In this document: positions 1,921-2,166 of the stretch, in pieces
How positions within the stretch are numbered: position 1 is the stretch's first letter
Layout of the letters: every line of letters begins with the position of its first letter
NCBI RefSeq assembly: GCF_024223415.1
Contig: NZ_CP100501.1
Length of the DNA stretch: 64,000 nt
Source of the DNA: Escherichia coli
GTDB taxonomy: Bacteria > Pseudomonadota > Gammaproteobacteria > Enterobacterales > Enterobacteriaceae
Reading direction: 5' to 3' (one strand)
Program-made: the position numbers and the translations under genes
The notes under the pieces: generated by a model
Databases searched by the model: none
Told to the model about the DNA's origin: nothing
What the model saw: the letters and a program-made list of their open reading frames with translations, nothing else

Positions 1921-2166
1921 TCACCTGCGTCGCGCCGGCTGCCAGGTAAACGTGTTCTCTGCGGCACGATACGCTTTTGTTCGTTGAGCCTTTGCGGTTC
2001 TCGCTTTGCGCTCTGCCCGAATCATTCTCAAAACTTTTACACGCACTTTTCTCTTAACTTCCCGTGGCAGTTCATCCCTGCCGGACAACTTTAACTGTGC
2101 AGCCTGTGCGGCATAAGCATCGTTGATACGCTTACGTTCTGCTTCCGTCAGTTTCATCCAAGACAT
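1921..2166 (-). CDS. hypothetical small basic protein (81 aa)
   Basis: ORF preceded by a strong AGGAGG Shine-Dalgarno about 6 nt upstream of ATG; lysine/arginine-rich product; no family recognised. Confidence 0.45.
   Translation of the reverse strand: MSWMKLTEAERKRINDAYAAQAAQLKLSGRDELPREVKRKVRVKVLRMIRAERKARTAKAQRTKAYRAAENTFTWQPARRR

What the first reader, a model, noticed from the sequence alone, without database searches (positions are those of the whole stretch)
1921..2166. Small basic protein gene with a near-consensus Shine-Dalgarno isolated between IS elements
The 81-aa ORF has AGGAGG about 6 nt upstream of its ATG and an Arg/Lys-rich C-terminal half, suggesting a nucleic-acid-binding small protein. 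It lies between the IS256-like remnant and IS2 and may belong to either or be independent cargo.
Basis: seen in the sequence. Interest (0 to 1): 0.25.

Follow-up and report, generated by a model that had tools for sequence, protein, structure and literature searches.

The report
Stranded ColE1-plasmid small basic protein gene
The 81-codon reading frame is a real, intact gene for a small, very basic helical protein that normally lives on small ColE1-type bacteriocin plasmids (CloDF13 included); here it is a leftover fragment trapped between insertion sequences on a large conjugative plasmid, and its function is still unknown.

Summary
Observation confirmed. Window 1921-2166 (minus strand) encodes an 81-aa protein (pI 11.6). 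AGGAGG lies 4 nt before the ATG, and the C-terminal half is 38% Lys/Arg. It is a real gene: it aligns without gaps to relatives down to 54% identity, more distant members (36-49%) need only short indels, dN/dS is 0.12-0.31, and third codon positions vary most.

It belongs to neither flanking IS. IS2 (2294-3624) is a simple insertion with a 5-bp duplication. The IS1414 end lies about 12-15 nt past the stop codon. The gene and the DNA beyond IS2 are collinear (78%) with colicin-R ColE1-type plasmids, so this is a ColE1-type relic inside an IncI1-type plasmid (100% match to pGF60-A over the 470 bp compared; annotation coordinates coincide).

Relatives occur on more than 440 small enterobacterial plasmids, including CloDF13. 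There the gene sits against the Xer (cer/parB) site and divergent from the bacteriocin gene, or directly after the relaxase gene, or overlapping the end of rop. Every source calls it hypothetical.

It is probably a remote relative of chromosomal YjbD/DUF3811 (hhalign 84%), which is also uncharacterised. The predicted fold is a generic helical hairpin, and a ribbon-helix-helix dimer was not supported. Nucleic-acid binding is plausible but untested. Low to moderate interest.

The parts
1921..2166 (-). Intact 81-aa coding sequence (WP_045148228.1 / UniProt A0A0D8VA34). Predicted helical hairpin (helices 8-24 and 35-72) with a conserved C-terminal tail TFTWQPARRR.
2171..2176 (-). Shine-Dalgarno AGGAGG, 4 nt before the ATG. 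A GGAG-type SD is present 5-7 nt before the ATG in almost all family members examined.
2167..2293 (-). Retained native 5' leader and upstream DNA (127 nt). Positions 2169-2263 are 90% identical to colicin-R ColE1-type plasmids. No consensus sigma-70 promoter was found.
1907..1920 (-). Last roughly 14 nt of native 3' flank. Homology to the small plasmids ends here, so the native downstream DNA (traJ-II-like element and cer site in the closest relatives) has been lost.
1373..1906 (-). IS1414 (IS256-family) remnant: its terminal sequence plus the first 153 codons of the transposase, truncated by an IS3-family copy. Not functionally linked to the gene.
2294..3624 (-). Complete IS2 (1331 bp), a simple insertion 127 nt upstream of the ATG and in the same orientation as the gene. 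The 5-bp target duplication AAGAG is at 2289-2293 and 3625-3629.
3625..5213 (-). Continuation of the ColE1-type plasmid relic: an AT-rich, ORF-poor stretch of about 1.5 kb, 78-80% identical to colicin-R plasmids between the mob end and the gene. Homology was detected to about 5157.

Best explanation
SHOWN. This is an intact copy of a conserved backbone gene of ColE1-type (RNAI/Rop) enterobacterial plasmids. With about 1.6 kb of adjoining DNA, it was captured in the accessory region between nikB and trbC of an IncI1-type conjugative plasmid. It was then hemmed in by IS1414 (about 12-15 nt after its stop codon) and by IS2 (127 nt before its start codon). It belongs to neither IS. The protein is 81 aa with pI 11.6 and is predicted to fold as a helical hairpin with a long Lys/Arg-rich second helix and an invariant aromatic/Arg tail (TFTWQPxRRR). 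It is under purifying selection. It is probably a remote, plasmid-borne relative of the chromosomal YjbD/DUF3811 family.

INFERRED (about 40% likely). The protein works by binding nucleic acid (plasmid DNA or RNA) or an acidic host partner through the basic helix and Arg tail, serving plasmid maintenance or mobilisation rather than bacteriocin production. In this window it is a stranded passenger that has lost its native neighbours (the Xer/cer site, the mob operon and the bacteriocin promoter).
For: Real gene:
- Ten sequences align without gaps with 30 invariant columns, down to 54% identity.
- dN/dS is 0.12-0.31, and synonymous sites are saturated between subfamilies.
- Within the conserved tail the third codon position varies most (0.16/0.11/0.29).
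- 81-aa length and an SD are conserved across the family.

Distribution:
- tblastn finds 440 plasmids (438 full length) with the window protein and 497 with P0013, mostly small mobilisable Klebsiella and E. coli plasmids, CloDF13 included.
- There are 112 clusters at 90% identity, all 'hypothetical', but only 27 representatives at 50% identity among 1.84 billion proteins.

Relic status:
- IS2 has a 5-bp target duplication, and its site is uninterrupted in pTB-nb2.
- With IS2 removed, the window is collinear over 2.0 kb at 78% identity with colicin-R plasmid L022.
- The host replicon is IncI1-type.

Backbone role:
- A Xer core lies 2-10 nt after the stop codon in six plasmid types, and a degenerate one lies 31 nt after it in a seventh.
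- The gene follows the relaxase gene by 17-33 nt in two divergent lineages.
- It overlaps the rop stop codon by 4 nt in a Xenorhabdus plasmid.

DUF3811 link:
- P0010 scores 23.1 bits against Pfam DUF3811, whose gathering cut-off is 23.5, over its full length.
- hhalign gives 84% probability, E = 7.5e-6, over 71 columns.
- Reciprocal HMM scores for the bridging members exceed all 3,000 shuffled controls.
- UniRef already names one member DUF3811.

Fold: AlphaFold2 mean pLDDT 81, helices 8-24 and 35-72.
Against: - No function is known for any member or for YjbD/DUF3811.
- Fold searches return only generic helical hairpins.
- The window protein gives no Pfam hit on its own, and against a YjbD HMM it scores within the range of shuffled sequences. 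The DUF3811 link therefore rests on intermediate sequences.
- Genomic contexts differ between lineages, so no single partner gene or site is constant.
- The gene is frameshifted in colicin-R plasmids, so it is dispensable at least there.
- No promoter was recognised upstream in the window, and expression of this copy is untested.
Confidence: 0.6

Rival explanations
1. Mobilisation accessory protein. It would be a third component of the ColE1-type (MobC-relaxase) transfer operon that helps relaxosome function or establishment in the recipient. The Arg-rich C-terminus might act as a secretion signal.
For: It lies 17 nt (L009-L012) and 33 nt (L031/L032) downstream of the relaxase gene, on the same strand and with its own SD, in two divergent lineages. 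MOB-suite types 410 of 440 host plasmids as mobilisable.
Against: The gene is kept under purifying selection on plasmids with no annotated relaxase (L002, L003, L007). CloDF13-type plasmids use an unrelated MOB system and place the gene far from it. The probable chromosomal homologue YjbD has no transfer context. In pColD157-type plasmids the gene converges on the mob operon.
Confidence: 0.2
2. Factor linked to multimer resolution at the Xer (cer/parB) site, or to its checkpoint.
For: The XerD arm of a cer-type core lies 2-10 nt after the stop codon in L006, L008, L014, L018, L019 and L020, and a degenerate core lies 31 nt after it in L026. A core lies 204 nt downstream in L013.
Against: The distance is 0.9-1.3 kb, with the opposite orientation, in the window's own subfamily, and CloDF13 has genes K and L in between. 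No core was detected in L009, L016, L029 or L031. In ColE1 the unrelated exc2 gene abuts the XerD arm in the same way, so adjacency may only mark a module boundary. By established knowledge, cer recombination needs only the host proteins XerCD, ArgR and PepA.
Confidence: 0.1
3. Regulator of the divergently transcribed, SOS-controlled bacteriocin operon.
For: The gene is divergent from cloacin DF13, colicin D, pesticin and a pore-forming colicin across 260-330 bp intergenic regions. A LexA box lies at -277 to -279 relative to the ATG in five of the 14 copies examined.
Against: It is present and intact on plasmids without an annotated bacteriocin gene (L003, L007, L020), inside mob operons, after rop and here with no bacteriocin gene nearby. 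The bacteriocins involved are mechanistically unrelated.
Confidence: 0.1
4. Not a gene. The frame is conserved only because it overlaps a cis-acting DNA or RNA element, or it is a chance ORF.
For: A frame of this length with an AGGAGG is not rare by chance. No Pfam, NCBIfam or PHROG family matches the window protein.
Against: dN/dS is 0.12-0.31. Third-position variation dominates even in the most conserved tail. Protein identity of 54% is retained where nucleotide identity is only 54% and synonymous sites are saturated. The 81-aa length is kept without gaps down to 54% identity. The flanks diverge much faster than the coding region.
Confidence: 0.03
5. Passenger or accessory gene of IS1414 (IS256 family) or of IS2.
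For: It is physically adjacent to both elements in the window.
Against: The IS1414 end occurs in 3,962 E. coli genomes, but the ORF accompanies it in only 13. IS2 has exact 1331-bp ends with a 5-bp target duplication, and the site is empty in pTB-nb2. Homologues sit on small plasmids with no IS nearby.
Confidence: 0.02

Closest known systems
YjbD / DUF3811 (Pfam PF11656), a chromosomal protein of Enterobacteriaceae
   Same: Similar size (90 vs 81 aa) and strongly basic. Same layout: an N-terminal '(L/M)T-x-x-E...L' helix, a basic central helix with a conserved ER, and a C-terminal [ST]F[ST]W...R[RG]RR tail. hhalign gives 84% probability over nearly the full length. Both are of unknown function.
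   Different: The window protein does not reach the Pfam threshold on its own; only bridging members come close. The family is plasmid-borne rather than located between rluF and lysC. Pairwise BLASTP finds nothing.
The unnamed ORF of CloDF13 (WP_021515249.1, NC_002119.1 3446-3691) and its Klebsiella, E. coli and Salmonella small-plasmid orthologues
   Same: Same family: 54% identity, a gapless 81-aa alignment and an identical C-terminal motif. All are annotated 'hypothetical protein'.
   Different: In those plasmids the gene keeps its native setting, divergent from the bacteriocin operon and next to parB/cer or genes K/L. The window copy is an orphan between IS elements on an IncI1-type plasmid.
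exc1/exc2 of ColE1
   Same: They occupy the same slot, between the bacteriocin promoter and the XerD arm of cer, with the stop codon a few nt from the XerD arm.
   Different: There is no sequence relationship: the family HMM finds nothing in ColE1. Exc2 is annotated as a lipoprotein. Colicin-R plasmids carry both exc1/exc2 and a frameshifted copy of this gene.
Rop/Rom (PF01815), the small helical-hairpin RNA-binding protein of ColE1 plasmids
   Same: A small protein predicted as a two-helix hairpin and encoded on the same plasmid type. In one Xenorhabdus plasmid the two genes overlap by 4 nt.
   Different: There is no Pfam Rop match. The host plasmids carry a separate rop gene. This protein is far more basic and has an extra conserved tail. 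No confident dimer was predicted.

Membership tests
DUF3811 / YjbD (PF11656) | Score at or above the Pfam gathering threshold (23.5 bits) | tested here: not met
   The window protein has no hit at E<=1. Bridging members score 23.1 bits (P0010, full length), 17.9 (P0022) and 15.6 (P0012).
DUF3811 / YjbD (PF11656) | Profile-level homology to authentic YjbD sequences | tested here: inconclusive
   hhalign gives 84% probability, E = 7.5e-6, over 71 columns. The family HMM scores all 14 YjbD sequences at 7-16 bits. The YjbD HMM scores three members above all 3,000 shuffles, but the window protein (6.0 bits) falls within the shuffle range. UniRef labels one Klebsiella member DUF3811.
DUF3811 / YjbD (PF11656) | About 80-90 aa, basic, with an N-terminal LT..E helix and a C-terminal [ST]F[ST]W...RRR tail | tested here: met
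   Alignments A2 and A5, the YjbD sequence, and pI 11.6 vs 10.2.
DUF3811 / YjbD (PF11656) | Chromosomal core gene of Enterobacteriaceae (rluF-yjbD-lysC locus in E. coli K-12) | tested here: not met
   The window copy is on an IncI1-type plasmid. Relatives are on small plasmids. K-12 locus.
ColE1-type plasmid 81-aa protein family (unnamed; CloDF13 WP_021515249.1 cluster) | Full-length match to the family profile, with conserved length and the C-terminal TFTWQPxRRR motif | tested here: met
   The cluster representative (98% identical to the window protein) scores E = 6.3e-39 with the A1 profile; the window frame itself scores 1.9e-38 with the A2 family HMM. Gapless alignment with 30 invariant columns.
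ColE1-type plasmid 81-aa protein family (unnamed; CloDF13 WP_021515249.1 cluster) | Located on a ColE1-type (RNAI/Rop) replicon near cer, mob or the bacteriocin genes | tested here: not met
   The window is an IncI1-type plasmid with no Xer core detected anywhere in the 64 kb. The flanking 2 kb is collinear with a ColE1-type plasmid, so the gene is a displaced member.
IS256-family (IS1414) element | The gene lies inside the IS ends and travels with the IS | tested here: not met
   The IS end is at about 1906-1909, outside the ORF. 3,962 genomes carry the IS end but only 13 carry the ORF.
IS2 (IS3 family) | The gene lies inside the IS ends | tested here: not met
   IS2 spans 2294-3624 with the target duplication AAGAG on each side. 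The site is empty in L004.
Ribbon-helix-helix DNA-binding proteins (CopG/Arc/MetJ, MobC/NikA-type) | N-terminal beta-strand pairing in a dimer, and a match to RHH family profiles | tested here: not met
   The tandem-fusion AlphaFold2 model has no strands and pTM 0.34. No RHH Pfam family matches. This is a weak test because the alignment is shallow.
Rop (PF01815) | Match to the Rop profile | tested here: not met
   No hit. A separate rop gene is present on the host plasmids.

The most novel reading that the evidence does not exclude
The family could be an overlooked backbone function of the classic ColE1/CloDF13 plasmids: a plasmid-borne version of the host protein YjbD that binds a nucleic acid or a host factor to influence multimer resolution and its checkpoint, copy control or mobilisation. 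Its invariant Arg-rich C-terminus could possibly also serve as a transfer signal. That would give the first functional handle on DUF3811.
Probability: 0.15. Interest if true: 0.55.

Novelty: new member of a known kind. Interest (0 to 1): 0.25.

Why it matters
For this window it matters little. The gene is a stranded relic, and it mainly shows that a piece of a ColE1-type plasmid was captured in the IS-rich accessory region of an IncI1-type plasmid.

More broadly, an unnamed 81-aa gene under purifying selection sits on hundreds of small bacteriocin plasmids, CloDF13 among them. It often lies directly against the Xer site or directly after the relaxase gene. It is probably related to the uncharacterised core protein YjbD. 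A simple deletion or binding study on CloDF13 or a pColD157-type plasmid could assign a function both to this plasmid gene and to DUF3811.

Tried and rejected
- Pfam, NCBIfam, PHROGs and PADLOC scans of the window protein gave nothing meaningful. The NCBIfam and PHROG hits at E = 0.07-0.5 are noise.
- A profile search of PDB sequences found nothing below E = 1.
- The ribbon-helix-helix idea, prompted by the 'KLTxxE...L...A...GL' pattern, was tested with a tandem-fusion AlphaFold2 model and not supported.
- The idea that the conserved C-terminus reflects an overlapping antisense RNA or the cer site was rejected. The tail is conserved in copies far from any Xer core, and its third codon positions vary most.
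- An Rfam scan of window 1300-4600 found nothing credible. The traJ-II hits are in the small plasmids L002 and L003 only, downstream of the gene, in DNA that the window has lost.
- Consensus promoter and terminator scans around the gene, in the DNA beyond IS2, in L022 and in CloDF13 were uninformative.
- tblastn with P0010 against PLSDB found no match.
- Literature searches for the accession numbers, pColD157, CloDF13, DUF3811 and yjbD returned nothing on function.
- ColE1 itself has no copy.

Full report
**1. Observation**

The ORF exists at 1921-2166 on the minus strand and encodes 81 aa: MSWMKLTEAERKRINDAYAAQAAQLKLSGRDELPREVKRKVRVKVLRMIRAERKARTAKAQRTKAYRAAENTFTWQPARRR. AGGAGG (reverse complement of 2171-2176) precedes the ATG by 4 nt. 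The protein has pI 11.6. Residues 35-81 carry 18 Lys/Arg against 3 Asp/Glu, and the K+R fraction is the highest of the 194 ORFs of at least 60 aa in the window. An ORF of this size with an AGGAGG is not improbable by chance: the window holds 31 AGGAGG, and 6 of them are followed by ATG within 3-9 nt. The case for a gene therefore rests on conservation.

**2. It is a real gene**

PGAP annotates it as WP_045148228.1, 'hypothetical protein'. The exact protein is UniProt A0A0D8VA34, 'uncharacterized', and occurs on about 1,000 contigs.

- tblastn finds full-length, 81-aa relatives on 440 plasmids. A second query from a divergent subfamily finds 497.
- Ten representatives spanning 54-88% identity align without a single gap. 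They share 30 invariant columns and a strictly conserved C-terminus, TFTWQPxRRR.
- Pairwise dN/dS is 0.12-0.31. Between subfamilies, nucleotide identity is only about 54% and synonymous sites are saturated, yet protein identity remains 54%.
- Even in the last 12 codons the third position varies most (0.16/0.11/0.29), so that conservation acts on the protein rather than on an overlapping DNA or RNA element.
- The flanks diverge much faster than the coding region.
- A GGAG-type SD 5-7 nt before the ATG recurs across the family.

**3. Where it sits in the window**

The window corresponds to plasmid pGF60-A of an E. coli isolate from chicken meat: the 470-bp query matches it at 100%, and its annotated features fall at the same coordinates as in the window. 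Its content is IncI1-type (trbABC, excA, traY...traJ).

- IS2 occupies exactly 2294-3624 (1331 bp). The 5-bp duplication AAGAG lies at 2289-2293 and 3625-3629, and in pTB-nb2 (L004) the same sequence is uninterrupted.
- To the left, the terminal sequence of IS1414 begins about 12-15 nt after the stop codon. That IS end occurs in 3,962 of 5,426 E. coli genomes, but only 13 genomes have the ORF next to it.
- With IS2 removed, window 1921-2293 plus 3630-5157 is collinear at 78% identity over 2.0 kb with colicin-R ColE1-type plasmids (L022 6528-8489). In those plasmids the gene lies between the mob operon and cer/exc2/exc1/colicin R, and it is frameshifted there.
- The segment 1376-5213 is bracketed by two inverted IS3-family copies.

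The gene is therefore part of a ColE1-type plasmid relic. It is not part of either IS.

**4. The family and its native settings**

The family is small and restricted to plasmids of Enterobacterales. There are 27 representatives at 50% identity among 1.84 billion proteins and 112 clusters at 90% identity, all unnamed. CloDF13 carries a copy at 3446-3691. Four settings recur.

- Divergent from a bacteriocin gene across 260-330 bp: cloacin DF13, colicin D, pesticin and a pore-forming colicin. In these plasmids the stop codon lies 2-10 nt from the XerD arm of a cer/parB-type Xer core, in six plasmid types. A degenerate core lies 31 nt away in large Enterobacter plasmids. In ColE1 the unrelated exc2 gene abuts cer in the same way, and ColE1 has no copy of this gene.
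- Directly after the relaxase gene (17 or 33 nt) in MobC-relaxase operons, in two divergent lineages.
- Overlapping the stop codon of rop by 4 nt in a Xenorhabdus plasmid.
- As an orphan: this window, and a Pantoea chromosome next to a Tn3-type transposase.

The window's closest relatives (81-88% identity; L002, L003, L007) are small RNAI/Rop plasmids with no annotated relaxase. In them cer lies 0.9-1.3 kb downstream.

**5. Relationship to known families**

The window protein matches no Pfam, NCBIfam, PHROG or PADLOC model. Divergent members approach the threshold of Pfam DUF3811 (the YjbD family): P0010 scores 23.1 bits over its full length against a cut-off of 23.5.

- A profile-profile comparison with 14 authentic YjbD sequences gives 84% probability, E = 7.5e-6, over 71 of about 81 columns.
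- The family HMM scores every YjbD sequence positively. The YjbD HMM scores three bridging members above all 3,000 shuffled controls, but not the window protein itself.
- One UniRef entry for a Klebsiella member is already named DUF3811.

I conclude that remote homology is probable. The window protein does not formally meet the Pfam membership criterion. No function for YjbD/DUF3811 was found in the searchable literature.

**6. Structure and mechanism**

AlphaFold2 (10-sequence alignment, mean pLDDT 81) predicts helix 8-24, a loop with a conserved Pro, a long basic helix 35-72 and a less ordered tail. A tandem-fusion model built to test for a ribbon-helix-helix or Rop-like dimer shows no beta-strands and no confident packing (pTM 0.34). 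Fold searches return only generic hairpins.

What is shown: this is a conserved, selected, very basic helical protein of plasmid backbones.

What is inferred: it binds nucleic acid or an acidic host partner through the basic helix and the W...RRR tail, in the service of plasmid maintenance or transfer. I put this at about 40%.

- A dedicated bacteriocin regulator is unlikely, because the gene persists on plasmids without an annotated bacteriocin gene.
- A strictly mobilisation-dependent role is weakened by its conservation on plasmids with no annotated relaxase, and by the chromosomal paralogue.
- A Xer-specific role is weakened by the variable spacing to the Xer core.

Whether the window copy is expressed is unknown. 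No consensus promoter was found. IS2 lies upstream on the same strand, so read-through from it is conceivable, but this was not tested.

**7. Verdict**

The copy is an ordinary stranded member of a little-noticed plasmid gene family, probably a DUF3811 relative. Interest is low to moderate.

Noticed in passing
window 78-1375 and 5214-6531: Two IS3-family copies in inverted orientation (93-95% complementary) bracket the 3.8-kb segment that holds the IS1414 remnant, the 81-aa gene, IS2 and the AT-rich relic. The sequences just outside them (1-48 and 6522-6569) are also perfect inverted repeats. This suggests an IS3-mediated inversion or a composite-transposon-like unit.
   Followed up: partly
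window 3625-5190: An AT-rich stretch of about 1.5 kb has no annotated gene and only short ORFs. It is nevertheless conserved at about 80% identity with colicin-R-type ColE1 plasmids of 8.9-9.4 kb and at over 99% identity with about 16 large plasmids. What it encodes is unclear.
   Followed up: partly
window 1376-1834 and 9094-9240: The two halves of the IS1414 (IS256-family) transposase gene lie 7 kb apart on opposite strands, whereas pTB-nb2 (L004 4792-6000) has the element in one piece next to the gene. This points to rearrangement after an IS3 insertion.
   Followed up: no
L006, L008, L014, L018, L019, L020 (stop codon +2 to +10 nt); L026 (+31 nt); L021 ColE1 3928-3945: A cer/parB-type Xer core lies directly against the stop codon of the 81-aa gene, with the XerD arm proximal and on the opposite strand. 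ColE1 exc2 abuts cer with the same geometry. This may mark a recombination-defined module boundary.
   Followed up: partly
L002 582-664 (+), L003 1791-1855 (-): Rfam traJ-II motif hits (43.6 bits, above the gathering score of 40, in L002; 29.5 bits in L003) lie about 130 nt downstream of the gene on small plasmids with no annotated relaxase. In L002 they are followed by a region rich in inverted repeats (900-1130). This is possibly an orphan oriT-like element.
   Followed up: no
L022 8212-8486, L023 394-668: In colicin-R plasmids the 81-aa gene is split by a frameshift into two fragments, which databases list as separate small 'proteins' (P0009 and P0020).
   Followed up: yes
L030 (Xenorhabdus bovienii contig, 8404 bp): The contig has two RNAI hits (1155-1258 and 7093-7196) and two C4 antisense RNA hits (3887-3971 and 4447-4533). 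The family gene overlaps the rop stop codon by 4 nt.
   Followed up: no
L001 1720-2055 (pGF60-A, just outside the window): A mobilisation-type MobC next to the nikA/nikB-like genes is annotated 'molybdopterin-guanine dinucleotide biosynthesis protein MobC', an apparent name collision. Some sources likewise name family members '3-dehydroquinate synthetase' or 'DNA gyrase/topoisomerase IV subunit B'.
   Followed up: no
window 14524-14607 (+) and 20281-20433 (+): A DinQ-like type I toxin gene (dqlB) and a Hok/Gef family gene are annotated in the IncI1-type backbone.
   Followed up: no
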